A DNA stretch of 51,071 nucleotides from Syntrophobacteraceae bacterium CG2_30_61_12 (GCA_001873705.1 MNZR01000016.1:1-51071), one strand, 5' to 3'. Shown: positions 13,942-30,081, numbered from the stretch's first letter. Notes: generated from the sequence alone by a model not told the origin. A program made the numbers and translations.

Positions 13942-13959
13942 CAGCAGGGGAGATAAAAC

Positions 13960-14982: not shown

Positions 14983-14993
14983 AAGGATACGCC

Positions 14994-16010
14994 ATGAGTG
15001 CCGAAATTAAACCCGGCTTCAATTATGACAGAAAGAAACTGGCAGACATTATCCCGCTTAAAACCCCATTTACGTTCCTACTCGCCCCCTCTCACGTATG
15101 CAACCTGAGGTGTTTTTACTGTTCTCAAGCAAAAGATCGCGAAGATCTCATCAAGGATGGCTTTCGCTTCAAGTTGATGGACTACGACGTCTTTCTCAAG
15201 TTCGCCAAACAGTTGAAGCGGTTTCCCGATAGGCTCAAACTCGTTTTCGTCTCCGGCATGGGCGAACCCTTGATGCACAAACGTCTTCCCGACATGATTG
15301 CACGACTCCGGAACTTGGATGTGGCCGAACGCTTGGAAATATTCACGAACGGCCTGCTCTTGACCAAAGAAACCAGCGAAGCCCTTGTTGACTCGGGACT
15401 CACCCGAATTCGCGTTTCGTTGCAAGGGTTAACCTCCAAAAAATACAAAGAGATATCGAGTGCTGACATTAGCTTTGAGGACCTGCGCCACAACCTTGCG
15501 TATTTTTTCAAGGTACGTAAGCAGTGCAAACTTTATGTGAAAGTAATCGATGTGGCTCTGGAACCGGGCGAGGAGGATAAGTTCTACGATATGTTCCGGG
15601 ATGTCAGCGATGAAATGTTCATTGAACGCTTCGTTCCCTATCAACTGACAATGGGGGACTATGACAATGCCGCCGGTGTTACGACAACCGTGTACGGCGA
15701 CAAGATTCTTAGTGCTGATGTCTGTCCCGAGCCCTTCTTCAATTGGCAAATCGACGTCGATGGCAACATCTACCCTTGTTGTCCCCTTGGGCTACCCAAA
15801 TCCTTTTCCGTCGGCAACGTTAACCACTCAACGATCTTCGACATGTGGAACGGCGAGAAGGCACGGCAGCTGCGACTCCAACTGCTCGGTAAGCAGCGTT
15901 CAGCACACTATGTCTGCGGAAGCTGTCGAGTCTTTCTGTCGAAGCTGACTCCCGCCGACCGGCTCGACGACGATGCCGACAGGCTGATCCCCCTTTTTGA
16001 AAAACTGTAA
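14994..16010 (+). CDS. Radical SAM/SPASM-domain enzyme, paralogue 2
   Basis: SHVCNLRCFYC, GMGEPL, CPEPFFNWQIDVDGNIYPCC...CGSC. Collinear with paralogue 1. Confidence 0.8.
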   Translation: MSAEIKPGFNYDRKKLADIIPLKTPFTFLLAPSHVCNLRCFYCSQAKDREDLIKDGFRFKLMDYDVFLKFAKQLKRFPDRLKLVFVSGMGEPLMHKRLPDMIARLRNLDVAERLEIFTNGLLLTKETSEALVDSGLTRIRVSLQGLTSKKYKEISSADISFEDLRHNLAYFFKVRKQCKLYVKVIDVALEPGEEDKFYDMFRDVSDEMFIERFVPYQLTMGDYDNAAGVTTTVYGDKILSADVCPEPFFNWQIDVDGNIYPCCPLGLPKSFSVGNVNHSTIFDMWNGEKARQLRLQLLGKQRSAHYVCGSCRVFLSKLTPADRLDDDADRLIPLFEKL

Positions 16011-16023
16011 GGAGTGATGTCAG

Positions 16024-17043
16024 ATGAAAGCCGAAATTAAGCCGATCGCCGACCTCAATCGCGTGAGGCTCGCCGATGCCGTCCCCCTGAAGACGCCATT
16101 CGCGCTGTACCTCTTTCACACGAACATCTGTAATTTCAGGTGCACCTTTTGCGCGCACAGTCTGGGGCGCGAAGGGATGAAACGGGAGTATGGCTTTGTG
16201 CCTGAAGTCATGCCGATGGAGGTGTTCGAACGCACCATCGAACAGATGAAAGCCTTTCCTCGCAAATTCAAATTTGTCTCCTTTACCGGCCAGGGAGAGC
16301 CTCTGACCAACAAGCGTCTTCCTGACCTGGTCATGCGCCTGCGGAAGGCCGAGGTTGCCGATGTCACCGAAGTCATCACCAACGGAGCGCTGCTGACCCC
16401 AAAGATCAGCAGGGCGCTCATCGACGCAGGACTGGATCGGATGAAGATTTCAATCCAGGGTATCAATACCCAAGCCTATAAGACTATCACGGGGGTGAAT
16501 GTCGATTTCGACAAATTTGTCGAGCAGGTGCGCTTTCTCTACGAGCGGAAAGGAATGATGCAGCTTTTCGTCAAGGTCATGAACATCTCCCTTGCTCCTG
16601 GCGAAGATGAAAAATTCTACAAGATCTTCGGCGAAATATCGGACCGCATGTATATCGAGACTTGTCGTCCAGTGTACCCTGGCGTCGACTATGGAGACAG
16701 GAGTGAAGATGTAACCATGGACCGTTTCGGACGCCAGCATGATAAACGTTTGGTCTGCCCCCTCTGCTTTTTCCACCTCGCCATCTGGCCCAATGGCGAC
16801 GTCGTTCCGTGCGATACGATCCTCAAGCCTATCGTCCTGGGCAATGTCAATGACAAACAGATGACGCTGAAAGACATGTGGAATGGCCGGGCACACCGTG
16901 AGTTCTGCGCGATGCAACTTCGTAAGGAGCGCATGATCTCCAATCCGCAGTGCACTAGGTGCATTGCCCCGGATGACGTTTGTCACCCTGAGGATGCCTT
17001 AGACATCGATGCTGAAAAGATACGGACATCGTACTATCAGTAA
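16024..17043 (+). CDS. Radical SAM/SPASM-domain enzyme, paralogue 3
   Basis: TNICNFRCTFC, GQGEPL, CPLCFFHLAIWPNGDVVPCD...CTRC. Collinear with paralogues 1 and 2. Confidence 0.8.
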   Translation: MKAEIKPIADLNRVRLADAVPLKTPFALYLFHTNICNFRCTFCAHSLGREGMKREYGFVPEVMPMEVFERTIEQMKAFPRKFKFVSFTGQGEPLTNKRLPDLVMRLRKAEVADVTEVITNGALLTPKISRALIDAGLDRMKISIQGINTQAYKTITGVNVDFDKFVEQVRFLYERKGMMQLFVKVMNISLAPGEDEKFYKIFGEISDRMYIETCRPVYPGVDYGDRSEDVTMDRFGRQHDKRLVCPLCFFHLAIWPNGDVVPCDTILKPIVLGNVNDKQMTLKDMWNGRAHREFCAMQLRKERMISNPQCTRCIAPDDVCHPEDALDIDAEKIRTSYYQ

Positions 17044-17150
17044 TTGGGAACAGGGCAAACCATGTCGAAAAGCGGCTTTTGGGATGGACTGCAAGGAGAG
17101 AAGGGCTTCGTTAGCCGAATCACGATTCAGCTAGCATGGGTATATTCGTC

Positions 17151-18449
17151 ATGACAAGAATACTTCATATTACAGCCCATCTTGGCGGGGGCGTTGGGAA
17201 GGTGCTTTCTCGGCTTTGTGGAAAATCAGTGCGGCCGCGAAGTGATGTTCAGCATACCATCATATGCATGGAACATCCGCAAAAGTCCGAATTCAGGGAT
17301 TACGTCCTGGCCAGTGGTTCTGAGTTATTGGTCTGTCCTTCAAGCGGTTTACTCAACCGTCGAGTCGCCGAAGCTGACATCGTTCAGGTGGAATGGTGGC
17401 ACCACCCCGTTGTGGCGGGCTGGCTTTGCGCAGGGGTGTTGCCTCCCATGCGGTTGGTGGTGTGGAGCCATGTCTCCGGGCTTCATCCGCCCGAAATTCC
17501 GCTGGGGTTCCTGCTGGCTCCTCATCGTTTTCTTTTTACCTCCCCCTGTTCCTGGGAGCATCCCCGGATTATTGGACTCGATGGTGAACAACGGCATAGA
17601 ATCGATGTTGTGCACAGCTCCGGTGGCTTCGAAGATTTATCGGAACGCTGCGCAGCACCGCGAGATGGCCCCATTCGCGTCGGATATGTGGGGACTCTCA
17701 ATTTCTCCAAGCTCCATCCTGAGCTTCTGGATTTCTTGGAGGCCGTGCCCTTGCCCAAGTTTCGACTGACTCTTGTAGGTGATCTAACAGCAGGCGAGCA
17801 ACTGATTTCCCGCGCTGCCTCCAGACATTTGACCGACAGACTCGAGTTGCCCGGTTACAAGGCCGATGTAGCCACTGAACTTGCCCGCTTCGATGTGTTG
17901 GCCTACCTTTTGAATCCCCTCCACTACGGCACCACGGAAAATGCCCTGCTGGAGGCCATGGCTATGGGGGTGGTGCCGGTGGTTCTGAATAACCCGGCAG
18001 AGCGGCATCTGGTCACGCATGGAGAAACCGGTCTCATAGTAGATTCCCCAGCAGCCTTTGCCGAAGCGCTGGTGTTTCTGGAGGATCACCCTGACAAGCG
18101 TAACATACTGTCCGCCAATGCAAGCGTTGATGTGCGTGAGCGTTTCGCGTTGCAGCGCACGATCTCGCTGCTCGAAACTCACTACCGAGCAGTTTTGGAG
18201 GAGCCGAAACGGGTGTTCGACTTCCGGTCGGTATTTGGGGGCAGGCCTTCCGATTGGTTCCTTGCCTGCCAGGGATCGCAAGTCTGGCGATTCAAGGGCA
18301 ACAAAAAACACATGGAGCTCACCGGAAAGAGTAGCAGGGGGCCTCATTACCTTTACGAAAAGACCAAGAGCTCCGTATTCCACTACCATCACACCTATCC
18401 GCATGACAGACAGCTGGAGTCCTGGGCGCAAAACCTGGAGGCAAGATAG
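17151..18449 (+). CDS. GT4 (GT-B) family glycosyltransferase
   Basis: MTRILHITAHLGGGVGKV N-terminus and TENALLEAMAMGVVPVV (Ex7E region). Confidence 0.75.
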   Translation: MTRILHITAHLGGGVGKVLSRLCGKSVRPRSDVQHTIICMEHPQKSEFRDYVLASGSELLVCPSSGLLNRRVAEADIVQVEWWHHPVVAGWLCAGVLPPMRLVVWSHVSGLHPPEIPLGFLLAPHRFLFTSPCSWEHPRIIGLDGEQRHRIDVVHSSGGFEDLSERCAAPRDGPIRVGYVGTLNFSKLHPELLDFLEAVPLPKFRLTLVGDLTAGEQLISRAASRHLTDRLELPGYKADVATELARFDVLAYLLNPLHYGTTENALLEAMAMGVVPVVLNNPAERHLVTHGETGLIVDSPAAFAEALVFLEDHPDKRNILSANASVDVRERFALQRTISLLETHYRAVLEEPKRVFDFRSVFGGRPSDWFLACQGSQVWRFKGNKKHMELTGKSSRGPHYLYEKTKSSVFHYHHTYPHDRQLESWAQNLEAR

Positions 18450-18492
18450 AAAGAAATAAGTTCAATGCTGCTATCGATTTAAAAAATTCATA

Positions 18493-19695
18493 ATGATTCT
18501 AAGGCGCGCAGAGGGTCTTGACCTTCTGGACGGAATCATTGCTGCACAATTCTCTGATATTTCCCTTATTCACTGGATGTCGCCCATGCAAAGCCACGGA
18601 TTGGGAATGAGTGAAGAGCAACAGCCCCATATCTTTCCAAAGGTGGATGTCATTGTCCCTACCTATGATTACGGTCATTATCTGAATGCCTGTCTGGCAT
18701 CGATTAGAGCCCAAACCTATGCCGACTATTCCGTCCTGATCATCGACAATGCATCCGAAGACGATACTGAAAAGATCGCCAGGCACTGGCAGAACAGGGA
18801 TTCCCGCTTTCGTTATGTTCGCAACGATACCAACCTCGGACTGATGGCCAGTGTTCTGAAGGCCTACGCGCTCACCCGGGCTGAGTTGGTTCTTTTTTTG
18901 TCCGCGGACGATTTGCTTGAGCCCCGGTTCCTGGCACTTGCGGTTGGGGCACTCGATCAACATCCCGAATGCACATTTGCCTACAGCGCATGGAAAATGT
19001 TCGTTGATGATCCCGGGAGTCAAAACCATGGTGCGGAATACCGCTATTTCTCTCCGCATGATTGCAGTGGTTGCTATGATGAAGCAGCATTGCTGCTGGC
19101 TCACAACTGGATCACCAACTCGTTCACTCTCTTCCGCCGAGAGGTTTGTGATGCCGTAGGGGGGGTTAATCCTACCGACCTGCAGCATGTTGGTGACTGG
19201 TACACTTGGATGCTGTTTTCTGCGAAGGGTCCGGCCTGCTATATCCACGAGAGACTTGGGCGGTATCGAATACATGCCAACACGGAAACAAACCGGTTGG
19301 TCGCCAATTACCGGTCCGGTTACGATCATATTCGCTTTTACGACCTCATCTTCGAATCGGAGCTTTGGCCCATGCCGATCCGCTTGGCTGCCAAAGCGCA
19401 TCAAAGCCGATGGCTGACAGGCGAACCCCTGACGCTCATCGCCCGAAAGATGGGTGGTGAGCGAGCCGAGCCCTTGATGCGACATTTCGTAAGCAGGTAT
19501 CGCGATGCATTCTATGTGGCCATCGCTCAGAGTGTTCTCCAGTACACGCCCAGCAAGAATTTCCTGGATACTCCGGAAAATGCGCTGGCCCTTCTGCGAG
19601 AAGTGTTGCTTCACGATTCAAGCAATGCGCAAGCGGCTATGCTGTACCAATCCTATCGTGGACAAGGTCGATCCAAAGGGCTGTTGATCACGTAG
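18493..19695 (+). CDS. GT2 family glycosyltransferase
   Basis: VDVIVPTYDYGHYLNACLASIRAQTYADYSVLIIDNASEDDT. The start may be an internal ATG (18577 or 18607). Confidence 0.75.
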   Translation: MILRRAEGLDLLDGIIAAQFSDISLIHWMSPMQSHGLGMSEEQQPHIFPKVDVIVPTYDYGHYLNACLASIRAQTYADYSVLIIDNASEDDTEKIARHWQNRDSRFRYVRNDTNLGLMASVLKAYALTRAELVLFLSADDLLEPRFLALAVGALDQHPECTFAYSAWKMFVDDPGSQNHGAEYRYFSPHDCSGCYDEAALLLAHNWITNSFTLFRREVCDAVGGVNPTDLQHVGDWYTWMLFSAKGPACYIHERLGRYRIHANTETNRLVANYRSGYDHIRFYDLIFESELWPMPIRLAAKAHQSRWLTGEPLTLIARKMGGERAEPLMRHFVSRYRDAFYVAIAQSVLQYTPSKNFLDTPENALALLREVLLHDSSNAQAAMLYQSYRGQGRSKGLLIT

Positions 19696-19766: not shown

Positions 19767-22700
19767 GTGAACAAATTGATCCAACTGAGAAATGCTAGAA
19801 CGACCGGGCGCCATTGGGGCGAAGCGAACAACGAACGCGAGTTCGCCACATTCTCATGTGATCATCCGAATCAGGCTGGTGCGCATATTCGGCAGATTTC
19901 GTCCCATGCCAGTAAATACGTCACCATTGTGATACCGGTTCATGATGCTTTGGATTTGACTCGAACCTGTGTCAACTCTATTTATACTAATACTCCCTGC
20001 GGGACTTACCAAATCATTATTGTGGATAATGGGTCAACGCATGGCGTGCGAGGCCTTCTCGACACGAGGAATACATCCGAGTCCATCAGGGTGATTCGGA
20101 ATCGGGAGAACTTGGGATTCGCCAAGGCCTGCAATCAAGGCATCCGGAGCGCTCGGGGGCACTTTGTTCTACTGCTCAACAATGATACTGTCGTGACCGC
20201 GGGATGGCTGGACGCATTGCTTGTGGAGATGGAACAAAACAAAAAGGTTGGCATTGCGGGATCCTGTTTGCTCTATCCCGGCAGCACCCGGATCCAGCAT
20301 GTTGGAGTTTCGGTGGGATGGCACAACGGTGTCCTGTTTCCATACCACGTTCATAGGCTGCGTAAGGTTGAGCATGTTCCGGATGCCCTCCGAAGTCGCA
20401 AGCTGAAAGCCGTAACAGGTGCCTGCATGCTTGTGCGGCGTGAAATACTCGATGTGGTGCCCGGATTCGACGAAATTTATCTGAATGGCTACGAGGATAT
20501 CGACTTCTGCTTTCAAGCCTTGAAAGCGGGTTTTGACATTCACTATTGCGGTAAGAGCCAAGTATACCACCATGAGTCGATGTCGAAGGGGCGGCACGAT
20601 CGCGACGGGGAAAATCTTTGGAGGTTGAATAAGAAATGGAATGGGATCGTCGAACCGGACGAAGACGAAATGACAACGCATGCAGCCCTACGCGAGATTG
20701 CGGCACGTGAAGAATTGCAAAGAAATCCTGACAGCTACAAGTGCATATCGATGCTTCAGGGTATCTCTCTCGAGCGCGGCGACTATGACGAGGCCCGTGA
20801 ATGCAGAATGGGAAGACTCCCTGCCGTGCCCGTCGTCACCATTGTTATTCCCACCTACAATAATCTGGCGCTCACAACCCAGTGCCTCAAATCGATTCGC
20901 GATACAACTTCCGGCATCCCTTTTGAGATTATTTGCGTTGACAATGCTTCCAGCGACGGCACGGTCGAGTTTCTCAAACGTGAAGAATCTCTGAACAAGT
21001 TGGTCCTGGTCAGCAACGGGCAGAATCTGGGTTTTGCCAAGGCCTGTAACCAGGGCGCCAAGCTCGCGTTGGGAAAATACCTTGTGTTTCTCAACAACGA
21101 CATCATAGCCTTGGACGGTTGGTTACGGGAAATGCTCAAGTGCATGGATGGCGATGCCAGTGTCGGGATGGTCGGGAGCAAACTTCTGTATCCGCAAGGA
21201 ACAGTTCAACACGCCGGAGTCGCTTTTGGAGAAGACGGTATACCTTTCCACATATATCGTTTTGCGGATCCCGAGGCTGCCTATGTGAACAGGACACGCG
21301 AGTTGTCCGCTGTCACCGGGGCGTGTTTCCTCGTCCGGCGAGAGGTATTTTCGAAGTTGGGCGGTTTTGATGAGAAATACGAGAACGGCTTGGAGGACAT
21401 TGATTTTTGTCTTCGCATTAGAGAACAAGCACTGAGGATTCTGTACTGCCCGACAAGCGTCCTCTATCACATGGAAAGTGTATCGGAGGGGAGATTTAAT
21501 AAGACATTGGATAACTGTCGTTATTTCTCCGCGAAGTGGGGAAGGGGACTCAATGCGGATGATGAGAGAATATGCGCGGAGGACGGCACGGACATCCGGC
21601 GAATTCGTCATCTTGAGGCTTCCATGCGCCAGGGCATGGGGTATTCCCGGAAAACCGTCATCGACTATAGGATCGATTCCACGCCCCTGTGCGAGCAACT
21701 CACGGCGAGTCGCGATTTGACCACACCAAATCCCTCGTCGAACAAGGCTTCTTTGCTGTCCATTGTTATCCTGTCACTGAATCAGTCGGAATGGACCCGG
21801 GCATGTCTGGAAAGCATTAGGAAGCACAGCACCTTGCCTTACGAAATCATCCTGGTGGACAACGGATCGTCAAGCCGGACCATCAGCGCTCTCCTGGATT
21901 TCACCGTTAATGATCCACGTATTTCCGTCATTCTCAATGCTCGAAACAAGGGGTTTGCCGGGGGCAACAATCAGGGGATGGCCCTGGCCCAGGGCGATTA
22001 CATCTTGTTGCTCAACAATGACACGCTGGTTACCGCGGAATGGCTGGAAGGCCTGGTGAAGGTCTTCGCGGATTATCCCAAGGTCGGCATCGTGGGGCCC
22101 ATGTCGAATCATGTTGCGGGCCCGCAGCTAGTGGAGAGCGCCCGATACGGGAATATCACGGAAATGGAAGCCTTTGCGTCGCGCTGGCGGAAGGACAATT
22201 GCGGCACAACCTTTTCCGTTCCGGCCGTTATAGGATTTTGCATGCTCGTAAGACGGCGAGTGATCGATGCAATTGGCGGACTGGATGAACTTTTCGGTGT
22301 AGGGAATTTTGAGGACATCGATTACTGCTATCGAGCTTTCCTTGCGGACCACGAAATCCGGGTTGCCCGTGATGTCTTTATCCATCATCAGGGCAGTCTC
22401 ACTTTCAAGGCTGAAAATGTCGACTACGTCAGGTTGATGAAGAAGAACTGGGAACTCTTCAAGGCGAAATGGGGTCTGGATCCCGGTCTTGCCCTTGCCA
22501 GGGGACAGAGGACTGTTGTGCTCAATAAGGAACGGGCGCTGCGACAAACGATTGCTCTTCCTGATCTTCGGGAAACCCACGAGTACGACGCGGAAATGAA
22601 GCTCTGGCGTGGCAGATCAACCAAGGCGTACCCCTTGAACAAGACCGGGAGAAAGGCGGGGCTCCCGGTTGAGCGCGAGTCTCGCGGTGGAATTGCCACC

Positions 22701-23675
22701 ACCGCCGAATCGCTATCCGCAAGTGCTTTCCAACCTCCCGTCACCGCCAATAATCCCATGCCCCGGATATCCATCATTATTCCGACGTACCAGAATGTGG
22801 ACCTTACCCGCCAATGTCTGCATGGGATCCTTCACAATAAGGCGGACATTCCATGCGAAATAATCGTTGTTGACAACCACTCTACTGACGGCACCGAGTT
22901 GTACCTTCGAGAAATGCAGAGCAAGGGCATCCTCAGAGCTCTATTCAACCCCATGAACGCGGGGTTTGCTCGGGCATGCAATCAGGGGGCGCAGGTGGCT
23001 CAATGCCCATTTCTCCTTTTTCTCAACAACGATACCTTTCCCATGAAGGGATGGATGCAGTCTCTACTCCAAATCGCGCTACGGGATGAAAATGCGGCCA
23101 TCATTGGAAGCAAGCTTCTTTATCCTGACGGGAAAGTGCAACATGCCGGCATGGAACTCATTCACTACGACAAGGGAAGGAAGTTGGCACGCCCCGTTCC
23201 CGGACATCCCCATCGGTTTGCTGACAGCAATGCCGCTGAGGTGAATCAATATCGTGAACCGGATATGGTGACAGGTGCTTGCATTCTGGTGAGGAAAGAG
23301 GTCTTTTTTCTGCTCGGCGGTTTCGACGAAGTCTACCGCAACGGGGTCGAGGATGTGGATCTTTGCCTCAGAGCCCGTTGTGCCGGATACAAGGTGGTGT
23401 ATCAGCCCGAGTCTGTTGTCTTCCACTACGAAGGGCAGAGTCCGGGGAGATTTGACAAAGAACCGGTCTGTAAAAACCTCTCGATCTATTTCGCGCGGTG
23501 GGGGAACCAATTCGGTACGGACGGGCGCTTGCTCATCCCGCAACCCCCACGCATCATTCGGTCTCAGACCAGCCTATTGGTCGGTGATCACGGCGGCCCA
23601 TCAATGGCACCCGGCCCATCGAGCGGCTCCAATGGAGAAGGGCTCAGAATTTGCTTGTCCAGGTTCTCGAAGTGA
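19767..23675 (+). CDS. 1302-aa protein with four tandem GT2 catalytic domains
   Basis: Four repeats of the same motif series: (V/I)(V/I)IP(V/T)(H/Y)..., VDN(G/A/H)S, LNND, TGAC.LVR(R/K)E (IGFCMLVRRR in domain 3) and ED(I/V)D.C. Domains start near aa 51, 356, 663 and 1000 (nt ~19917, 20832, 21753, 22764). GTG start. Confidence 0.8.
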   Translation: MNKLIQLRNARTTGRHWGEANNEREFATFSCDHPNQAGAHIRQISSHASKYVTIVIPVHDALDLTRTCVNSIYTNTPCGTYQIIIVDNGSTHGVRGLLDTRNTSESIRVIRNRENLGFAKACNQGIRSARGHFVLLLNNDTVVTAGWLDALLVEMEQNKKVGIAGSCLLYPGSTRIQHVGVSVGWHNGVLFPYHVHRLRKVEHVPDALRSRKLKAVTGACMLVRREILDVVPGFDEIYLNGYEDIDFCFQALKAGFDIHYCGKSQVYHHESMSKGRHDRDGENLWRLNKKWNGIVEPDEDEMTTHAALREIAAREELQRNPDSYKCISMLQGISLERGDYDEARECRMGRLPAVPVVTIVIPTYNNLALTTQCLKSIRDTTSGIPFEIICVDNASSDGTVEFLKREESLNKLVLVSNGQNLGFAKACNQGAKLALGKYLVFLNNDIIALDGWLREMLKCMDGDASVGMVGSKLLYPQGTVQHAGVAFGEDGIPFHIYRFADPEAAYVNRTRELSAVTGACFLVRREVFSKLGGFDEKYENGLEDIDFCLRIREQALRILYCPTSVLYHMESVSEGRFNKTLDNCRYFSAKWGRGLNADDERICAEDGTDIRRIRHLEASMRQGMGYSRKTVIDYRIDSTPLCEQLTASRDLTTPNPSSNKASLLSIVILSLNQSEWTRACLESIRKHSTLPYEIILVDNGSSSRTISALLDFTVNDPRISVILNARNKGFAGGNNQGMALAQGDYILLLNNDTLVTAEWLEGLVKVFADYPKVGIVGPMSNHVAGPQLVESARYGNITEMEAFASRWRKDNCGTTFSVPAVIGFCMLVRRRVIDAIGGLDELFGVGNFEDIDYCYRAFLADHEIRVARDVFIHHQGSLTFKAENVDYVRLMKKNWELFKAKWGLDPGLALARGQRTVVLNKERALRQTIALPDLRETHEYDAEMKLWRGRSTKAYPLNKTGRKAGLPVERESRGGIATTAESLSASAFQPPVTANNPMPRISIIIPTYQNVDLTRQCLHGILHNKADIPCEIIVVDNHSTDGTELYLREMQSKGILRALFNPMNAGFARACNQGAQVAQCPFLLFLNNDTFPMKGWMQSLLQIALRDENAAIIGSKLLYPDGKVQHAGMELIHYDKGRKLARPVPGHPHRFADSNAAEVNQYREPDMVTGACILVRKEVFFLLGGFDEVYRNGVEDVDLCLRARCAGYKVVYQPESVVFHYEGQSPGRFDKEPVCKNLSIYFARWGNQFGTDGRLLIPQPPRIIRSQTSLLVGDHGGPSMAPGPSSGSNGEGLRICLSRFSK

Positions 23676-23729: not shown

Positions 23730-24923
23730 ATGTGTGAAATGAACAGCAGATCATTGCAGTCGGAAGAGAAGCCAGACCAATCCGGGAAACTCCGCGATGA
23801 CATGGATTGGGGTGCCGAGGGCGAGAGGAAATTCGCCGGGGGCAGCTATGAAGAAGCCTGCCGATGCTTTGAACGGGCCCTGCAATGCCGGCCTTTTGAC
23901 GCCAAGATGCACAACAACATGAGTGTTGCTCTCTGGCAACAGGGCAATACCGGCGATGCCCTTCAACATCTGACGCAAGCCCTTGAGCTGGACCCGGATG
24001 ATCGGGATGTGATCTTTAATTGCGGCAGGATTTTTTGCAAGCTGGGTCGCCAGGAAGACGCGCGCGAGATTCTGGGAGCTTTCCTTGACAGAAATCCCGG
24101 GGACGGCGAGGCCAAAAACGAACTGGAGCGATTGAATACGCCGGCACAAGATAGTCAACCCGTTGACTCCGCGGCTTTTTTGAACCAGCAGGGAGAGGAA
24201 CAATTCGCCAGGGGGAAAAAGGAGCACGCCCGGGTCTGCTTCGAGTTGGCGTTGGAACACAATCCGGATAGCGCGCGTGCCTGCAACAACCTCGGCGTCC
24301 TTTATTGGGGTGAAGGCGATCTAAAAAAGGCACTGGAGCATCTCTACAAAGCCCTGGACCTTGACGCTGAAGATGCGGAAATCCTTTATAACTCAGCCAA
24401 GGTATTGACGGCATCCGGTGAAGTGGAAACGGCTGCGGATTTCCTACAACTCTATCTGCAAAAGCACCCTCGGGACGAAGCCGCCTGGCAAGATTATAGG
24501 CAACTCATCAGCGAGAGCACGTTCGCCTGGAACAACAACGGATTGGCTCCGGAGGTCGGTGACATTTATCTCCACATGGGGCAGGCGCTGGCAGCAGCCA
24601 AGGACTATCCGGGAGCAGCCGAAGCCTTGGGGCGGGCGGCCATGCTCAAACCCGATGATGCGCAGCCGCTCTATCAATTGGGACTCCTTCATCTCGAACT
24701 CGAGCAAAAGGAAGACGCCATTCGCATGTTCCGGGCCGGCTTGGAAAGGGATCCGGAACACCGAGGGGTGATTCTTGCCCTGGCTCGCGCACTTATCGAA
24801 GAAGGCTGCCAGGAACAAGCTCGGCCCGTGTTGGAAGCTTATCTGGCAGGGCACGAAGACCAAGAAATGGCTTCCTATCTTGAGGATGCCGGGGCCACCA
24901 ATGAGCAGCCTCAGCTCGCCTGA
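23730..24923 (+). CDS. TPR repeat protein
   Basis: Multiple 34-aa repeats, for example EEACRCFERALQCRPFDAKMHNNMSVALWQQGNTGDALQHLTQALELDPDD. AAGGAG lies 6 nt before the ATG. Confidence 0.75.
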   Translation: MCEMNSRSLQSEEKPDQSGKLRDDMDWGAEGERKFAGGSYEEACRCFERALQCRPFDAKMHNNMSVALWQQGNTGDALQHLTQALELDPDDRDVIFNCGRIFCKLGRQEDAREILGAFLDRNPGDGEAKNELERLNTPAQDSQPVDSAAFLNQQGEEQFARGKKEHARVCFELALEHNPDSARACNNLGVLYWGEGDLKKALEHLYKALDLDAEDAEILYNSAKVLTASGEVETAADFLQLYLQKHPRDEAAWQDYRQLISESTFAWNNNGLAPEVGDIYLHMGQALAAAKDYPGAAEALGRAAMLKPDDAQPLYQLGLLHLELEQKEDAIRMFRAGLERDPEHRGVILALARALIEEGCQEQARPVLEAYLAGHEDQEMASYLEDAGATNEQPQLA

Positions 24924-26583
24924 CGGGTGGTTGGCGAGAAATCTCCGCTGCCTTGCCTTGAGCAATCCCGGGCTGGCCGAGCGCTTGTGCGAGCCGGTCG
25001 CGGGCGATCATGTGGAGGTCCTCGCGGCGAAAACGGGAATCGCCACGGCTCGGTTCAACCGAATCCCCGAGTTATGGATTCAGGCGCCGGATGATCCCCG
25101 GGGCGATGCGGAAAAAACCGTTGCCGCTTGGGAGAGCCCAGATGATGGCCCGGTTCTGTGCCTGGGAGTGGGCCTGGGCTATGAGTTGAAAAGTCTACTC
25201 GACAGGTTGCCCTCCGAACGCCGGATGATCGGCTATGAAAGAGACCCGTGGCTGCTGCGGCAGGCCTTTCGGTGTCACGATTTCTCCAAGAATATCTTGT
25301 CTGCTCGATTGTCCTTCCTGCTCGGCACGGATTTGGCCGATGCGCCGATATCCGTTCCACTCAGCTTGTTCCGCCATCCCGTATTGGGTTCCCTCTACCA
25401 ATCGGAAAATGACTATCTGGATCACCGGGTTGGGGAAAAAACGTCACGGCGCGCGATGGTGGTGTCCGGGGGCCTGTTCGTTCAAGACGTTGAAGATGCC
25501 TTGAAGCATTCCGGTTTCAGCATCTTGACCTGGGACCCGAGAAGGGTGTCGCGCAAGGAAAGCGTTCATCAGTTGAAGCGCTTCGGCCCTGAACTTGTAT
25601 TTGCCATCAACTACCTTGCGGGCTTGCCGGAGTTGTGTCGGGAATTGGGAATTCCGTGTGTGATCTGGGAAATCGATCCATGTATCGAACGTCTCCCAGT
25701 CGGGTCCAACCAGCATGACCTGACCATGATTTACACTTACCGCAAGGGGCATGTGAGCCGCTACCGTCTGGCCGGTTTTTCTCATGTGGAGTATCTGCCG
25801 CTGGCGGCCAATCCGAAACGCCGCTATCCAATGCTCCCCAATGCCGACCAGGTGAGTAGATATGGAGCGACGATTTCGTTTGTGGGCAACTCCATGAGGG
25901 ACCAGGCAAAGGCGCTCAAGAAAGTGTTTGCCGAGGTCTGCCGCCACAACTCCATCTCGGACCCGGACCAACATTGGGACCAGGCTCTCGGCGCCCAACA
26001 AATGGACCTCGACCGGGATGTGGTACGGTCCGCATTGGCACGAACACTGAGCAGGGGCAATTCGATCCTTGCCGATGGCAACGGCCGGCTGGTGGACGTG
26101 GCTGCGTGCGCCGCGGAAACGGCTGCGTCGGACCGACGCATCCAGCTGATCGCTGCCCTGGCGACTCATGGTTTCGGTATTTCAGTTTGGGGAGATCCTG
26201 GCTGGGAGGAAGGGTGCTCGGCGGCTGATTACCGTGGGTGGGCCGGCCATGACCGGGAATTGACGGCGATTTACAATGCCAGCGTCATAAATTTGGACAT
26301 CAACCGCCTGTACCAGAGCGATATCGCCACCATGCGTGTTTTCGACGTGCTCGCCTGCAAGGGCTTTCTCCTGGCCGATTGTTCTTCCGCTGTCCAGGAC
26401 CTGTTCGAGGTGGGCGCTGAACTGGTGGTGTACCGCTCGACAAAGGAACTGCTTCACCTGGTCGAGTATTATCTCAAGCATGAGAAAGAGCGGGATCAAA
26501 TCGCCGAGGCAGGGCACTTGCGAGTGCTGCGGAACCACACGATTGAGCAAAGGATCGCTTGGGTCCTTGCTGAACTCGGATGA
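24901..26583 (+). CDS. CgeB-like (DUF3880 / Glyco_trans_1_2-type) glycosyltransferase with Maf-like N-terminal region
   Basis: C-terminus YNASVINLDINRLYQSDIATMRVFDVLACKGFLL...ELVVYRSTKELLHLVEYYLKHEKERDQIAEAGHLRVLRNHTIEQR resembles the CgeB family. N-terminus LARNLRCLALSNPGLAERL...LCLGVGLGYEL resembles the start of motility accessory factors. The ATG at 24901 overlaps the TPR gene end. Confidence 0.55.
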   Translation: MSSLSSPDGWLARNLRCLALSNPGLAERLCEPVAGDHVEVLAAKTGIATARFNRIPELWIQAPDDPRGDAEKTVAAWESPDDGPVLCLGVGLGYELKSLLDRLPSERRMIGYERDPWLLRQAFRCHDFSKNILSARLSFLLGTDLADAPISVPLSLFRHPVLGSLYQSENDYLDHRVGEKTSRRAMVVSGGLFVQDVEDALKHSGFSILTWDPRRVSRKESVHQLKRFGPELVFAINYLAGLPELCRELGIPCVIWEIDPCIERLPVGSNQHDLTMIYTYRKGHVSRYRLAGFSHVEYLPLAANPKRRYPMLPNADQVSRYGATISFVGNSMRDQAKALKKVFAEVCRHNSISDPDQHWDQALGAQQMDLDRDVVRSALARTLSRGNSILADGNGRLVDVAACAAETAASDRRIQLIAALATHGFGISVWGDPGWEEGCSAADYRGWAGHDRELTAIYNASVINLDINRLYQSDIATMRVFDVLACKGFLLADCSSAVQDLFEVGAELVVYRSTKELLHLVEYYLKHEKERDQIAEAGHLRVLRNHTIEQRIAWVLAELG

Positions 26584-26627: not shown

Positions 26628-26700
26628 CACCCACGGAGGCACAGAGGACCCAGAGAAATTCCAAGGTTTTTCTCCGTGTCCTCCGTGTTCTCTGTGGTGA
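26628..26700. repeat. REP-like compound hairpin in the intergenic region
   Basis: CACGGAGGCACAGAGGA...TCTCCGTGTCCTCCGTG...TCTCTGTGG. The arms are built from CACGGAGG/CACAGAGG units and their complements. Confidence 0.55.
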
Positions 26701-26756
26701 AAGCCTTTTGCTGTGGACGAAACGATGATCGTCGCCGAGGAAAGGTATCGGCCGGC

Positions 26757-28451
26757 ATGAAAATCAGCCTTTGCATGATCGTGAAAGATGAGCAGCAGCT
26801 TCTGGCCCGTTGTCTTGATAGTGTGCGCCATGTGGTGGACGAGATGGTGATTGTCGACACCGGATCCAGGGATCGGACCCGAGAAATCGCGTCTTCCTAC
26901 GGCGCCAGGATGGTGGATTTTACCTGGACCAACGACTTCGCCGCGGCACGCAATGTCGCGCTTGGGCACGCCTCCGGAGATTGGATCTTATGCTTGGATG
27001 CGGATGAGTTGTTAAAGATGCCCGTTGGCGGAAGCGGCCTGGACCAATTGGCCGCGGCCGATGAGGCGGACGCCTATTCCGTTCCGATTCAGAACAACAA
27101 ACTGGAAGGGGGATTCGAATTTCATTACGCAATTCGATTCTTCCGCAAGCTGCCTGGTATCCGATTTATCGGCAAGGTTCATGAGCGCGTTGACGAGAGC
27201 CTGTTCCATGAACAAGCGCGCATCCGCCAGGCCCCGTTTTCCATTGAACACACCGGCTACGCGATTCCTCCGGAAGAGATGGAGGAAAAGCTCAAGCGCA
27301 ATGCCAAACTGCTCCAGGATCAAATCGAGCAGGATCCCGGCAACTGTTTTGCGCACTACTACCTGGGGCTGACCTGGATCGGCCTGAAGGAATTCGACAA
27401 GAGTTTCCTGCATCTGCGGAGAGCACGGCAACTCGGTCCCGCGACGATCAATCTGAGTTGCTTGATCGATAACATCCTGGCCTACCATTACCTGGATCGA
27501 GAAGATTACCTGACGGCGGCAACCATCGCTCGCCGTTCACTGCGCGCACTGCCGGAGCAGAACACCGCCAAGCTATTCCTTGGAATAGCCCTTTTCAACC
27601 AGGGATCTCACCGGGAAGCCCTGCCCTTGCTGCGGGCCGCCTATCAGTTTCTGCGCCTCCCGATCGAGAGCAGGCGGACCCAACTGAGCCAGGAACACTC
27701 CTACAACGAGGCCGATCTGCTATGGGCATTGACCCGATCCGCGGCGGAGACGGGAGACTACGAAGGGGCCTTTGCTTACGTCCAACAGGTCCTGCGACTG
27801 CGGCCCGGGGACGCCAAGGCCTATCTGGCCAAAGCGCTTTGCTGCCTTTCGCTTGACGCAACCGTCGAAGCGAGAACCGCTCTCGCCAGGGCTCGGCACT
27901 TGGGACTGCCGGCTCGGGATCTGGCTTGGGCCGCATTGCAATTGGCGCTCAAAACCGGGGACCTGAATGCAGCCTCGGCCGTTCTGATGGACCACGCCGA
28001 TGCGTTGCTGGAAAACGATATGGGTCGGCAAGCGTTCGCAACATGGGTGGACCGATACGTCCGGGCGGGCAAGGAGGACACTCTTTTCAAGCTTCTGCTT
28101 CAAATGAATCAACAACATTCAGAGAGTCCGGCCATTCTGGATGCCTTGGCTTTTACCGCAATCAGGCAAGGCCGCTACCTGGATGCAAGGCGAGCGCTGG
28201 AGAGGCTGTCGCTCCTGGTCCCATCCCAACCCGATATCATGAAGCGGCTGGCGGGAATATACCTGCATCTGGGGCAGCGTGAACTGGCGGCACGGATGCT
28301 CCAAAAGGTGCGAGCGGCGGACCTTGAGGGACTTGGTTCCGCAGTTGGGAACAGTTACCCCTTGCCGAAGGGGGGCACCGATGGGGGGCCATTCAACCCG
28401 GCTTCCAGCGGGATTTGCCGCCGCGCTGGTCCGGAGGTCCACGATGGGTGA
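26757..28451 (+). CDS. GT2 glycosyltransferase fused to a long TPR domain
   Basis: MKISLCMIVKDEQQLLARCL...VIVDTGSRDRT...DFAAARNVAL...LCLDADE, followed by ~380 aa of TPR-like repeats. GAAAGG lies before the ATG. Confidence 0.75.
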   Translation: MKISLCMIVKDEQQLLARCLDSVRHVVDEMVIVDTGSRDRTREIASSYGARMVDFTWTNDFAAARNVALGHASGDWILCLDADELLKMPVGGSGLDQLAAADEADAYSVPIQNNKLEGGFEFHYAIRFFRKLPGIRFIGKVHERVDESLFHEQARIRQAPFSIEHTGYAIPPEEMEEKLKRNAKLLQDQIEQDPGNCFAHYYLGLTWIGLKEFDKSFLHLRRARQLGPATINLSCLIDNILAYHYLDREDYLTAATIARRSLRALPEQNTAKLFLGIALFNQGSHREALPLLRAAYQFLRLPIESRRTQLSQEHSYNEADLLWALTRSAAETGDYEGAFAYVQQVLRLRPGDAKAYLAKALCCLSLDATVEARTALARARHLGLPARDLAWAALQLALKTGDLNAASAVLMDHADALLENDMGRQAFATWVDRYVRAGKEDTLFKLLLQMNQQHSESPAILDALAFTAIRQGRYLDARRALERLSLLVPSQPDIMKRLAGIYLHLGQRELAARMLQKVRAADLEGLGSAVGNSYPLPKGGTDGGPFNPASSGICRRAGPEVHDG

Positions 28452-30081
28452 TCCGGGCAGCCTCTCGGTGTGCATGATTGTTCGGGATGAGGCTCGCCGG
28501 ATCGGCAAGGCATTGCATTGTTTCCAGAGCTTCGCCGATGAGATCATCGTGGTCGATACGGGGTCTCGAGACGAAACCAAGGAAATTGCCCGCGGATTCA
28601 CACCAAATTTGTTCGAGTTTGCTTGGTGTGATGATTTCGCGGCGGCCCGCAACGTCTCACTGGAACACGCCCATTGCAGTCATATTTTATGGCTGGATGC
28701 CGATGATCTGGTGGACGATGAGAATATCAATAAAATATTGCGCTTGAAACGGCTATTGGACAGCAACATCGCTTACTCCTTGGTGCTGCAAGATGTCCGA
28801 GCGGGAAAGCCGAGGCATTCCCTATACCAGTTGCGTTGCGTACCCAATCGATCCGATGTCCGTTTCGAGGGCCGTATTCATGAGGTCCTCGATCCCAGTG
28901 CCGCAGCCGCGGGTTTGACATTTGCCAGGGTGGACATCACCATCACCCACCATGGTTATGAAGATCCCTCCCTGTTCCGCGCCAAGGTGGAACGGAATAT
29001 TCAACTGATCAACCGGGAAATCCGGGCCGGGCGAGACGACACTCGGATCCTCTATTTTCTTGCTCAAAGTTACGGTTATTTGGGAAAATCCGAGGAAGCC
29101 GTGGCGACCATGCGTGAGGTTTTGAACCGGCTCGAGAGAAATACTCTGGAGCACCCCTTTTCGCAATCAAGTCTTACCGAACAACGGCAGCGCATCACCG
29201 ATAGTTGCCTCTTTCTTGCTGCACAACTGAGCGCGGCCCAGGACCAATCCGGCGCCCGTCGCTACCTTGTTAAGGCCCGGGCCGGAGCTTTCGATGATCG
29301 TTATGCGCTCTATCAAGTTGGGAACCTGCTGCAAAAAATCGGCGACCATGAGCAGGCCGTCGCCGTATTGGCGCTGGCTTTGGAATCAATCCAGAACACT
29401 TGTCATCTGCCTCGGCTTCCTGTCACTGATGCCAATATCTACGCACAGATGGCCTACAGTCATTATTGTCTGAACCGGCGCGCGACGGCCTTGCAATGCA
29501 TCGAGAACGGGTTGCGAACCGGATCGAGCCTGGAAATTTGGCAGCAGATCGCCGCCAAGGCCATGCAAGAGGGACGCTTTCAGTTGGCTCAGGAAGCCTA
29601 TGACTGTGCGGAACAAGATGGTGAATTAGCCGCGGACGGTTACTGCAACATGGGGTTGTTGCGAAGTAAAATCGGCGATCATTCGAAGGCTCGAAGATAT
29701 TTCGAGATGGCCCTGGGAAAACAGAAAAACCATTTGGATACCTTAATCAACTGGGCGCATTTGGAGCTCAGACTCGGCCGGTTCATGAAGGCGTGCCGAC
29801 TCTATGCCGGTGCCGTCGAAGCCGGCAGTCGCGGCCTGGATGTCATGCTGGCCTATTGCGCCACGGCGTATCGCACTGGAGTCACCGACAATCGAGTGAT
29901 CAAAGAGATCCTAGAAAAACAAATGGTGGAGGAGTTTGGTCGCACGATTCCAGGATCGGCGGCCGCGGATGTCAGGGTCCTTTTTGGCCTGGCGAAAAGG
30001 ATAGTGGAGGAAAAACACCGTCCCGGCTTGATCCGTTGGGCGCTAATTCTTGAAAAGCACGTGATGGGGGAGGGGCGCTAG
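28444..30081 (+). CDS. GT2 glycosyltransferase fused to a TPR domain, paralogue of 26757..28451
   Basis: LSVCMIVRDEARRIGKAL...IVVDTGSRDETKEIA...DFAAARNVSL...LWLDADD plus TPR repeats. There is an 8-nt overlap with the upstream paralogue. Confidence 0.75.
   Translation: MGDPGSLSVCMIVRDEARRIGKALHCFQSFADEIIVVDTGSRDETKEIARGFTPNLFEFAWCDDFAAARNVSLEHAHCSHILWLDADDLVDDENINKILRLKRLLDSNIAYSLVLQDVRAGKPRHSLYQLRCVPNRSDVRFEGRIHEVLDPSAAAAGLTFARVDITITHHGYEDPSLFRAKVERNIQLINREIRAGRDDTRILYFLAQSYGYLGKSEEAVATMREVLNRLERNTLEHPFSQSSLTEQRQRITDSCLFLAAQLSAAQDQSGARRYLVKARAGAFDDRYALYQVGNLLQKIGDHEQAVAVLALALESIQNTCHLPRLPVTDANIYAQMAYSHYCLNRRATALQCIENGLRTGSSLEIWQQIAAKAMQEGRFQLAQEAYDCAEQDGELAADGYCNMGLLRSKIGDHSKARRYFEMALGKQKNHLDTLINWAHLELRLGRFMKACRLYAGAVEAGSRGLDVMLAYCATAYRTGVTDNRVIKEILEKQMVEEFGRTIPGSAAADVRVLFGLAKRIVEEKHRPGLIRWALILEKHVMGEGR

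What the first reader, a model, noticed from the sequence alone, without database searches (positions are those of the whole stretch)
19767..23675. Single 1302-aa polypeptide with four complete GT2 domains
- Four copies of the same GT2 motif series occur in one ORF: VDN(G/A/H)S, LNND, TGAC.LVRRE and ED(I/V)D.C.
- The copies are separated by ~60-90-aa linkers.
- Bi-domain GT2 enzymes are common; a four-domain array is unusual.
- Such an array could assemble a tetrasaccharide or a repeating chain processively on one scaffold.
- Domain 3 is the most divergent (IGFCMLVRRR, NFEDIDYC).
Basis: seen in the sequence. Interest (0 to 1): 0.6.

Follow-up and report, generated by a model that had tools for sequence, protein, structure and literature searches.

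The report
Four-module glycosyltransferase beside flagellin gene
One 1302-residue soluble protein really does carry four complete sugar-transferring domains; it sits in a gene island just upstream of the flagellin gene and most likely extends a sugar chain on the flagellar filament protein, as one mosaic member of a widespread but untested enzyme class.

Summary
ORF 19767-23675 is open and encodes four full GT2 (GT-A) domains. Each passes Pfam's cut-off on its own and folds confidently. Seven independently assembled variants (99.6-99.9% identical) keep the same 1302-codon frame, and the DNA has no near-identical repeats, so it is not an assembly artefact.

The gene lies in a 27-kb co-directional island with sugar synthesis genes, radical-SAM and methyl tailoring genes and 11 GT domains. 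The island ends at fliC-fliD, has no membrane, export or lipid-carrier genes, and holds two GmaR-like GT2-TPR enzymes.

The best reading is a cytoplasmic multi-module elongating enzyme for the flagellin O-glycan.

The four domains did not arise by internal duplication. They fall in four separate clades, each shared with other multi-GT proteins. The same syntenic slot holds X-GT2'-D3-D4 in a Syntrophobacteraceae MAG and sulfotransferase-GT4-D2-D3 in another genome.

Four domains is the top of the range seen, but not unique: more than 20 other protein clusters also have four. Several relatives also sit beside flagellin genes. Function is inferred, not shown.

The parts
19767..23675 (+). ORF for the 1302-aa four-GT2 protein. 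It is soluble, with no predicted TM helix. The start is GTG at 19767 or TTG at 19776; any later start removes strand beta-1 of D1.
   Evidence: intact in 7 independent assemblies
19896..20702 (+). GT2 domain D1 (aa 44-312), with VDNGS, LNND, TGACMLVR and EDID. Its subtype is shared with P0010, P0022, P0032, P0034 and P0039.
   Evidence: 87.9 bits; clade support 0.95; pLDDT above 90
20811..21602 (+). GT2 domain D2 (aa 349-612). Its orthologue is the first GT2 of P0005 (58% identity). A predicted three-helix linker (aa 301-348) precedes it.
   Evidence: 94.8 bits; sister to P0005_d1, support 0.998
21729..22547 (+). GT2 domain D3 (aa 655-927, structured to about aa 949). It is a different GT2 subtype, with IGFCMLVRRR, NFEDIDYC and PMSNHVAGPQ. 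It is the module kept in both the L001 and the P0005 orthologous slots.
   Evidence: 99.3 bits; 62% and 59% identity
22743..23564 (+). GT2 domain D4 (aa 993-1266), with a low-confidence insertion of about 40 aa (aa 1126-1167). A predicted disordered tail follows, ending in GLRIC(LSRFSK). Its orthologue is the last domain of the L001 protein (67% identity).
   Evidence: support 1.0; 82.6 bits
23730..24923 (+). Stand-alone TPR protein directly downstream. It is conserved at this position in L001, L031, G002, G005, G007, G008 and G032. It is a candidate adaptor between flagellin and the GTs (inference).
24775..26583 (+). Glyco_trans_1_2 / DUF3880 (CgeB-like) transferase. The true start is probably later than the ORF listing gives.
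26676..28451 (+). GT2-TPR enzyme a, a GmaR-like candidate flagellin-directed (initiating) glycosyltransferase.
   Evidence: best PDB match GmaR 22ao at E 1.3e-32, then SunS
28279..30081 (+). GT2-TPR enzyme b, a second GmaR-like candidate flagellin-directed glycosyltransferase. The ORF as listed overlaps the previous gene, so the real start is probably later.
   Evidence: GmaR 22ao at E 9.8e-23, SunS
30086..31750 (+). GT4 glycosyltransferase of the conserved fliC-proximal core.
31854..32699 (+). Flagellin, 281 aa: the D0/D1 helical regions plus a short central stretch rich in Ser/Thr. It is the presumed glycan acceptor. The only strong terminator of the region follows it at 32738-32764.
32823..34223 (+). 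FliD filament cap protein.
17136..19695 (+). GT4 (17136-18449) and a single-domain GT2 (18493-19695) directly upstream, in the variable part of the island.
4892..17043 (+). Nucleotide-sugar synthesis genes: NTP-transferase, 4,6-dehydratase, DegT-type enzyme, RmlC-like epimerase and a reductase. Tailoring genes follow: 2 FkbM methyltransferases, a B12-radical SAM enzyme and 3 radical SAM/SPASM enzymes.

Best explanation
The protein is a soluble, cytoplasmic, four-module glycosyltransferase of a flagellin O-glycosylation island.

The proposed pathway, all inferred from homology and context:
1. Nucleotide sugars are made and tailored by the upstream genes.
2. The two GmaR-like GT2-TPR enzymes put the first sugar on Ser/Thr of unexported flagellin.
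3. The chain is extended directly on the protein by the non-TPR transferases, without a lipid carrier. The four GT2 modules of this protein each add one sugar or make one linkage.
4. The conserved neighbouring TPR protein may dock the enzyme on flagellin.

The protein itself is an evolutionary mosaic. D3 (with D4 or D2) is the conserved part of an orthologous 'slot', and the other modules have been swapped in. This would diversify the glycan.

Shown here: four intact GT-A domains, the genomic context, the synteny and the mosaic ancestry. Not shown: the acceptor, the donors, the order of action and whether all four sites are active.
For: Domain integrity:
- There are four full GT2 domains. All keep the invariant D of VDNxS, the NND motif and the EDxD motif.
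- All four fold as GT-A with pLDDT mostly above 90.
- Foldseek's top hits are the dual GT-A synthases K4CP and PmHS2 and the ppGalNAc-transferases.

Soluble, carrier-free setting:
- The protein has no TM helix, and no polytopic membrane protein is encoded anywhere from 4892 to 34223. So the island holds no Wzx, Wzy, ABC permease, phosphoglycosyltransferase or oligosaccharyltransferase.
- All genes from 4892 to fliC/fliD run in the same direction, with no strong terminator before the one after fliC.
- Flagellar genes continue downstream, including a sigma-54 activator and FliF.
- The two GT2-TPR proteins best match GmaR, the Listeria flagellin O-GlcNAc transferase. The literature uses GT2+TPR as the mark of a flagellin glycosyltransferase (PMC13317340).

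Synteny:
- The order multi-GT, TPR, (GT1_2), GT2-TPR x2, (GT4), FliC, FliD recurs in a Syntrophobacteraceae MAG (L001) and in GCA_900174595.1 (L031).
- The fliC-proximal core recurs in four same-family genomes and in G032.
- In 7 of 19 related genomes that have a hit, the hit lies no more than 15 kb from a flagellin gene. My rough estimate of the chance expectation is about 2%.
- Other relatives also sit by flagellar genes. P0010 lies directly upstream of fliC-fliD, P0028 lies inside a flg cluster, and P0007 lies next to motAB with the same radical-SAM set.
Against: - There is no experimental or expression data.
- This is an uncultured MAG, and read-level data were unavailable.
- GT2 domains of these subtypes also occur far from flagellin genes in some relatives, for example G013, G009 and G033. 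Context is therefore suggestive, not diagnostic.
- The metal-binding motif is NND rather than a canonical DxD. It is invariant in the 30 homologues aligned, but activity is unproven.
- The start codon is GTG or TTG with a weak ribosome-binding site, and the first 48 residues are predicted disordered.
- Donor sugars cannot be assigned. NCBIfam hits (MftF, EpsD, rhamnosyltransferase) are summed over four domains and are not true memberships.
Confidence: 0.68

Rival explanations
1. It is a true polymerase. The four modules act cyclically to build a long repeat-unit polysaccharide, with a tetrasaccharide repeat or two disaccharide repeats. The chain would grow on flagellin or on a lipid primer made elsewhere in the genome, in the manner of WbdA/WbbM/ORF6-O7 or K4CP.
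For: - Both halves best match the dual GT-A polymerases K4CP and PmHS2 in Foldseek, at E 1e-21 to 1e-26 over about 600 columns.
- Multi-module single-chain polymerases are the known precedent (PMC11231755).
- The FkbM methyltransferases in the island could act as chain terminators. This is my speculation.
Against: - The island has no ABC transporter, no Wzx/Wzy, no initiating phosphoglycosyltransferase and no coiled-coil ruler.
- The Foldseek matches reflect domain composition only: TM about 0.3, rmsd about 20 A, 15% identity.
- The conserved neighbours are protein-directed GT2-TPR enzymes and flagellin.
- A long polymer on flagellin would have to pass through the flagellar export channel.
Confidence: 0.15
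2. The gene belongs to a general cell-surface glycan pathway (EPS, LPS or S-layer glycan) that merely lies next to the flagellar genes. Flagellin is not its substrate.
For: - GT2 domains of the same subtypes occur away from flagellin in some related genomes.
Against: - The same slot upstream of TPR, GT2-TPR and fliC is occupied by a multi-GT protein in several distant genomes.
- The island has no membrane or export component.
Confidence: 0.1
3. One or more of the four domains is a catalytically dead scaffold or sugar-binding module. The protein then adds fewer than four sugars.
For: - The NND motif is a non-canonical DxD.
- D4 carries a 40-aa low-confidence insertion.
- D3 lacks the QHAG and H-x-E-S motifs of the other three domains.
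Against: - All four keep every column that is invariant across the family.
- D3 and D4 are 62-67% identical to their orthologues, and D2 is 58% identical to its orthologue. That argues for purifying selection on each.
- The D3-specific motifs are shared by a clade of 56 domains, so they mark a subtype, not decay.
Confidence: 0.2
4. It is an artefact: a mis-assembled or frame-fused gene.
For: The NCBI record annotates only 1209 aa, starting at V94 (P0124). Gene models therefore disagree at the 5' end.
Against: - Seven independent assemblies give the same 1302-codon frame.
- The domains are only 28-45% identical, with no long DNA repeats.
- Residues 44-93 align to the GT2 N-terminus and fold confidently.
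Confidence: 0.02

Closest known systems
Flagellin glycosylation islands with GT2-TPR flagellin glycosyltransferases (Listeria GmaR; predicted GT2+TPR enzymes in Clostridium islands, PMC13317340; P. syringae fgt1/fgt2 trisaccharide system, PMC3927599)
   Same: - The island lies directly upstream of fliC.
- Its enzymes are soluble.
- Nucleotide-sugar genes lie in cis.
- GmaR-like GT2-TPR enzymes are present.
- The glycan is presumably built sugar by sugar on the protein in the cytoplasm.
   Different: - In the studied systems the elongating transferases are separate single-domain proteins. Here four are fused in one chain.
- The island holds 11 GT domains plus radical-SAM tailoring genes.
- No glycan structure is known for this organism.
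Multi-module O-antigen polymerases of ABC-transporter-dependent pathways (WbdA with 2-3 GT4 modules, WbbM, WbbY, Klebsiella O7 ORF6 with 2 GT2 modules; PMC11231755)
   Same: Several GT modules sit in one polypeptide, one per linkage. The modules are GT2 in ORF6-O7. The modules are rearranged between serotypes.
   Different: - Those enzymes act on und-PP-linked acceptors.
- They sit with wzm/wzt and with a terminator or coiled-coil ruler.
- None of these is in this island.
- This protein has four modules rather than two or three.
Dual GT-A glycosaminoglycan synthases K4CP (2z86/2z87) and PmHS2 (8vh7/8vh8)
   Same: They are the best structural matches for both halves of the protein. Two GT-A domains lie in tandem, each with its own active site.
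   Different: - Identity is only 12-16%, and the relative orientation of the domains does not match (TM about 0.3).
- Those enzymes make long alternating polymers.
- They are not linked to flagella.
Chlorovirus PBCV-1 A111/114R (three GT functions in one protein; PMC7826918)
   Same: It is one soluble polypeptide with several GT activities. It builds a protein-linked glycan in the cytoplasm without the ER/Golgi or a lipid-carrier route.
   Different: It belongs to a eukaryotic virus, builds an N-linked capsid glycan and has different GT families. No sequence relationship was tested here.
Uncharacterised multi-GT2/TPR/methyltransferase giants next to flagellin genes in uncultured anaerobes (P0005, P0010, P0028 here; earlier scan notes e1-4944184, e1-2078593, e1-715655, e1-2083275)
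   Same: They share the same GT2 subtypes and the same genomic setting. Modules are orthologous: D2-D3 with P0005, and D1- and D4-type modules with P0010.
   Different: - Most of them are 1700-4400 aa and carry fused TPR, GT4, methyl- or sulfotransferase domains.
- This one consists of GT2 modules only, with its TPR partner encoded separately.
- The subtype order D1-D2-D3-D4 was not seen in any other protein sampled.

Membership tests
GT2 / GT-A inverting glycosyltransferases (Pfam PF00535) | Each domain scores above the family's curated cut-off over the full profile | tested here: met
   87.9, 94.8, 99.3 and 82.6 bits against 23.3. Profile coverage is 1-165/168, 1-167, 1-167 and 1-130, and for the fourth domain also PF13641 1-222/230.
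GT2 / GT-A inverting glycosyltransferases (Pfam PF00535) | GT-A Rossmann-like fold | tested here: met
   AlphaFold2 models have pLDDT mostly above 90 in all four domains. Foldseek hits to GT-A enzymes reach E 1e-12 to 1e-26.
GT2 / GT-A inverting glycosyltransferases (Pfam PF00535) | DxD metal/nucleotide-binding motif | tested here: inconclusive
   All four domains have NND (LNND), not DxD. The motif is invariant in the 30 homologues aligned, so it is the subtype's norm. Whether it binds metal was not testable.
GT2 / GT-A inverting glycosyltransferases (Pfam PF00535) | Acidic catalytic base region (ED motif) and the nucleotide-binding Asp after beta-2 | tested here: met
   EDxD and VDNxS are present in all four domains and invariant in the four-domain alignment.
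Flagellin glycosylation island | Lies next to flagellin or flagellar genes, conserved across genomes | tested here: met
   fliC lies 8 kb downstream on the same strand. The arrangement is syntenic in L001, L031, G002, G005, G007, G008 and G032.
Flagellin glycosylation island | A protein-directed (flagellin) glycosyltransferase is present | tested here: met
   Two GT2-TPR proteins best match GmaR, at E 1e-32 and 1e-22.
Flagellin glycosylation island | Soluble, carrier-free pathway: no flippase, polymerase, oligosaccharyltransferase or phosphoglycosyltransferase | tested here: met
   A hydropathy scan of all 25 genes from 518 to 34223 finds no polytopic membrane protein.
Flagellin glycosylation island | Flagellin actually carries the glycan, and the gene is needed for it | not testable with these tools
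   Needs mass spectrometry of flagellin and genetics.
Multi-module polymerase of ABC-transporter-dependent glycan assembly (WbdA/WbbM/ORF6-O7 type) | Several GT modules in one polypeptide | tested here: met
   Four modules.
Multi-module polymerase of ABC-transporter-dependent glycan assembly (WbdA/WbbM/ORF6-O7 type) | Wzm/Wzt transporter and a lipid-linked initiation enzyme in the locus | tested here: not met
   The island has no membrane proteins and no such Pfam families.
Multi-module polymerase of ABC-transporter-dependent glycan assembly (WbdA/WbbM/ORF6-O7 type) | Chain-terminating enzyme with a coiled-coil ruler | not tested
   Only a helical linker of about 48 aa between D1 and D2 is predicted. 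No dedicated coiled-coil analysis was run.

The most novel reading that the evidence does not exclude
The protein may be one cassette of a carrier-free, protein-templated glycan assembly line whose product is re-programmed by swapping GT modules.

An orthologous slot upstream of TPR, GT2-TPR and fliC holds different strings built around a constant D3 module:
- D1-D2-D3-D4 in this window.
- X-GT2'-D3-D4 in a Syntrophobacteraceae MAG.
- Sulfotransferase-GT4-D2-D3 in GCA_900174595.1.

On this reading, domain-level recombination would diversify the flagellar surface glycan, much as module exchange does in polyketide and non-ribosomal peptide synthases. Because the flagellin is short (281 aa, with no outer domains), the glycan may be the main exposed surface of the filament.
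Probability: 0.3. Interest if true: 0.6.

Novelty: new variant of a known kind. Interest (0 to 1): 0.38.

Why it matters
Flagellin glycosylation has mostly been studied in pathogens with simple glycans, where separate enzymes each add one sugar. This locus and its relatives show something different in uncultured anaerobes. There the elongating enzymes are often fused into long multi-module chains, and the modules are exchanged between genomes at one conserved position.

If the modules act in order on the flagellin-bound glycan, the architecture would let the length and composition of the glycan be read from the sequence. It would also provide a compact, soluble, lipid-free system for building defined oligosaccharides on a protein, which is of interest for glyco-engineering.

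As a single gene it is not a surprise to a specialist. Its value is as a clean member of the class, made only of GT2 modules, in which one-module-one-sugar logic can be tested.

Tried and rejected
- **Assembly artefact or internal recent duplication.** Rejected. The domains are 28-45% identical, there are no long DNA repeats, and seven assemblies agree.
- **Tandem internal duplication as the origin.** Rejected by the domain tree: the four domains fall in four non-overlapping clades.
- **Fusion of a D1-D2 gene with a D3-D4 gene.** Considered because G007 and G008 have 647-709 aa proteins that match aa 49-575. Only weakly supported: the second domain is just 31% identical to D2, and the tree instead pairs the D1 type with the D4 type and the D2 type with the D3 type in other proteins.
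- **NCBIfam names (MftF, EpsD, PgaC, rhamnosyltransferase).** Rejected as memberships. The scores are sums over four domains, and only MftF and TIGR04283 exceed their cut-offs, for that reason alone.
- **Rosetta-stone link between the stand-alone TPR protein and TPR regions fused to homologues.** The BLAST hits are generic TPR-to-TPR matches at 22-43% identity, so this is only weak support.
- **Pfam scan of the N-terminal 219 aa of the L001 orthologue.** No family found.
- **Literature searches for multi-GT2 proteins in flagellin islands.** Nothing specific turned up.
- **The look-up of sequencing runs.** Closed, so there was no read coverage or expression check.
- **Exact look-up of P0001 with V as first residue.** Failed. 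It worked with the DNA reference.
- **First fetch from genomes.** Failed on a region one base too long.


Full report
**1. The observation**

The ORF at 19767-23675 (+) is open for 1302 codons from a GTG. The nearest in-frame stop lies 12 codons upstream.

Pfam PF00535 (Glycos_transf_2) matches four stretches at E 5e-106. I cut the protein into four pieces. Each piece alone scores 83-99 bits against a cut-off of 23.3, with near full-length profile coverage.

They are VDNxS, LNND and EDxD in all four domains. TGACxLVR occurs in D1, D2 and D4, and D3 has IGFCMLVRRR instead.

The domains are about aa 44-312, 349-612, 655-949 and 993-1266. Linkers are roughly 40-60 aa. Pairwise identity is 45% for D2-D4, 41% for D1-D2, 38% for D1-D4, and 28-35% for D3 against the others.

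**2. It is not an artefact**

- The longest direct DNA repeat in the ORF is 40 nt at 85% identity.
- The 90%-identity cluster of this protein holds seven distinct full-length 1302-aa sequences from ENA and JGI assemblies. They differ by 1-5 substitutions and have no frameshift or stop.
- The NCBI gene model for this contig (P0124, 1209 aa) starts at V94. That start removes beta-1 to beta-2 and the VDNGS motif of D1.
- Residues 44-93 align to the other three domains and fold with pLDDT above 90, so the long model is right.
- Only GTG at 19767 or TTG at 19776 can serve as the start.
- The first 48 residues are predicted disordered.

**3. Structure**

I ran AlphaFold2 on the two halves with 30-sequence alignments.

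- All four domains come out as confident GT-A folds.
- The D1-D2 linker (aa 301-348) is predicted as three helices.
- The D2-D3 and D3-D4 linkers and the last 50 residues or so are predicted disordered.
- D4 has a low-confidence insertion of about 40 aa (aa 1126-1167), which the L001 orthologue also has.

For both halves the best Foldseek hits are the dual GT-A synthases K4CP and PmHS2, followed by ppGalNAc-transferases. Identity is 12-19% and the global TM score is about 0.3. The likeness is therefore one of domain type and number, not of quaternary arrangement.

The protein has no predicted TM helix: the maximum 19-residue hydropathy is 1.44.

**4.

All genes from 4892 to 34223 lie on the + strand. 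In order they are:

- NTP-transferase, 4,6-dehydratase, DegT-type enzyme, RmlC-like epimerase and a reductase.
- FkbM methyltransferase, B12-radical SAM enzyme and a second FkbM methyltransferase.
- Three radical SAM/SPASM enzymes.
- GT4, then a single-domain GT2.
- The four-GT2 protein.
- A TPR protein.
- A Glyco_trans_1_2/DUF3880 enzyme.
- Two GT2-TPR proteins, then GT4.
- Flagellin (281 aa), then FliD.

Further flagellar genes follow, including a sigma-54 activator and FliF. The only strong terminator is the one after fliC.

None of the 25 proteins from 518 to 34223 is a polytopic membrane protein. The island therefore has no flippase, polymerase, ABC permease, phosphoglycosyltransferase or oligosaccharyltransferase.

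The catalytic domains of both GT2-TPR proteins best match GmaR, the Listeria flagellin O-GlcNAc transferase. The E-values are 1.3e-32 and 9.8e-23, and the next match is the peptide glycosyltransferase SunS. Published work uses GT2+TPR as the signature of a flagellin glycosyltransferase (PMC13317340).

This is a flagellin glycosylation island.

**5. Synteny**

- In a Syntrophobacteraceae MAG (L001) the order is multi-GT (1105 aa), TPR, GT1_2/DUF3880, GT2-TPR, GT2-TPR, GT4, flagellin (73% identical), FliD.
- In GCA_900174595.1 (L031) a 1306-aa sulfotransferase-GT4-GT2-GT2 protein is followed by TPR, two GT2-TPR genes, two flagellin genes (74-76% identical), FliD and FliS.
- In four genomes of the window's own family, and in G032, the core TPR, GT2-TPR a, GT2-TPR b, (GT4), FliC is conserved. 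The region upstream of it is variable and holds other large GT proteins of 709, about 990 and 2087 aa.
- Seven of the 19 related genomes with a strong hit have that hit within 15 kb of a flagellin gene. My rough estimate of the chance expectation is about 2%.
- More distant relatives are also flagellar. P0010 (2175 aa) abuts fliC-fliD. P0028 (four GT2 domains, 2166 aa) lies inside a flg cluster, followed by two GT2-TPR genes. P0007 lies beside motAB with the same radical-SAM/B12/SPASM set. P0067 is flanked by GT2-TPR genes.

**6. Duplication or fusion?**

I built a tree of 331 GT2 domains taken from the 120 best homologues and the fetched loci. D1, D2, D3 and D4 fall in four non-overlapping clades with supports of 0.95, 0.91, 0.93 and 0.99. 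Each clade is populated by domains of other multi-GT proteins. The array was therefore assembled from pre-existing subtypes, not by tandem duplication.

Orthology is modular:

| Module(s) | Orthologue | Identity |
|---|---|---|
| D3, the D3-D4 linker, D4 and the tail | C-terminal two domains of L001 | 62-67% |
| D2-D3 | C-terminal pair of P0005 | 58-59% |

The first GT2 domain of L001 is a different type (LDDDD/EDWD), and its N-terminal 215 aa match no Pfam family.

D1-type domains are followed by D4-type domains in P0010, P0032, P0034 and P0039. D2-type domains are followed by D3-type domains in P0005 and about ten other proteins.

So one syntenic slot holds D1-D2-D3-D4, X-GT2'-D3-D4 or sulfotransferase-GT4-D2-D3. 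D3, the 'most divergent' domain, is the constant one. No other sampled protein has the subtype order D1-D2-D3-D4.

GC3 rises from 0.58 in D1 and D2 to 0.61-0.64 in D3 and D4. It is 0.62-0.69 in the conserved core genes and 0.74-0.77 in the flagellar structural genes. This fits a variable, exchanged region, but it is weak evidence.

**7. How unusual is four?**

Every one of the 120 best homologues has at least two such domains; 64 have three and about nine have four.

A profile of the four domains, searched against 1.84 billion cluster representatives, found 596,136 proteins at E up to 1e-3. By a strict count of full-length domains, the best 150 top out at four, with 13 further representatives reaching that number. 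HMMER reports up to 10 partial or divergent stretches in a 4437-aa protein.

Four is therefore the upper end of the range, but it recurs. Most other four-domain proteins are much larger and carry TPR, GT4, methyltransferase, sulfotransferase or radical-SAM domains. This protein is unusual mainly in being made of GT2 modules only, with its TPR partner encoded separately.

**8. Mechanism**

This is inferred. Flagellin is glycosylated in the cytoplasm before export (PMC4065374). The likely sequence is:

1. The GmaR-like GT2-TPR enzymes prime Ser/Thr in the short central region of flagellin, which is rich in Ser and Thr.
2. The non-TPR transferases extend the chain from nucleotide sugars. They are GT4, GT2, the four modules of this protein, the CgeB-like enzyme and a second GT4.
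3. By analogy with WbdA and Klebsiella O7 ORF6 (PMC11231755), each module makes one linkage.
4. The conserved TPR protein just downstream may dock the enzyme on flagellin. Many homologues have TPRs fused to them, but my test of this link gave only generic TPR matches.

With 11 GT domains and a flagellin that lacks outer domains, a large glycan may form the surface of the filament.

Rival readings remain possible and cannot be excluded without biochemistry. They are a cyclic polymerase, a non-flagellar surface glycan and partly dead modules.

**9. Verdict**

The protein is a mosaic, GT2-only member of a widespread and experimentally uncharacterised class of fused multi-glycosyltransferases in flagellin glycosylation islands.

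Earlier notes of this scan describe the same class in other genomes. They agree with this reading but are not independent evidence.

Noticed in passing
window 19767-20048: The NCBI gene model for this contig (P0124, 1209 aa) starts at V94. That start cuts beta-1 to beta-2 and the VDNGS motif off domain D1. Prodigal-type calls in ENA and JGI give the full 1302 aa.
   Followed up: yes
window 31854-32699: The flagellin is only 281 aa: the D0/D1 regions plus a central stretch of about 55 aa rich in Ser/Thr, with no outer domains. The island carries 11 GT domains, so the glycan may substitute for protein outer domains on the filament surface.
   Followed up: no
window 518-1545: A nucleotidyltransferase (Polbeta/MNT-like) and HepT-like RNase gene pair, typical of a toxin-antitoxin module, lies at the upstream edge of the island.
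   Followed up: no
window 9885-24000: There is a G+C trough, down to 0.43 at 10-12 kb, and a GC3 gradient. GC3 rises from the variable part of the island (0.58) through the conserved core (0.62-0.69) to the flagellar genes (0.74-0.77). This suggests that the variable part is exchanged horizontally.
   Followed up: partly
window 20667-20810 (aa 301-348): The D1-D2 linker is predicted as three helices with pLDDT 73-89. The D2-D3 and D3-D4 linkers and the C-terminal 50 aa are predicted disordered. The tail ends in a GLRIC motif that is conserved in the L001 orthologue.
   Followed up: partly
L001 9404-10060 and 6751-9357: The Syntrophobacteraceae orthologue has an N-terminal domain of 215 aa with no Pfam match. 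By eye it looks like a SAM-methyltransferase, but this was not tested. It is preceded by an 868-aa protein with a GT11 (fucosyltransferase-family) domain.
   Followed up: partly
window 24775-24923 and 28279-28451: The ORF listings overlap the preceding genes by 149 and 173 nt. The real starts of the CgeB-like gene and of the second GT2-TPR gene are probably further downstream.
   Followed up: no
L033 (GCA_026388255.1) 794-9885; L034 3016-9999: The same accessory set recurs next to distant multi-GT2 giants: a B12-radical SAM enzyme, radical SAM/SPASM enzymes, a methyltransferase and a GT4. The tailoring module and the multi-GT proteins therefore travel together.
   Followed up: no
P0143 (4437 aa), P0138, P0152: Some representatives in the 1.84-billion-protein library show 8-10 HMMER stretches of this GT2 profile in one polypeptide. 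These are possibly still longer GT arrays with divergent modules.
   Followed up: partly
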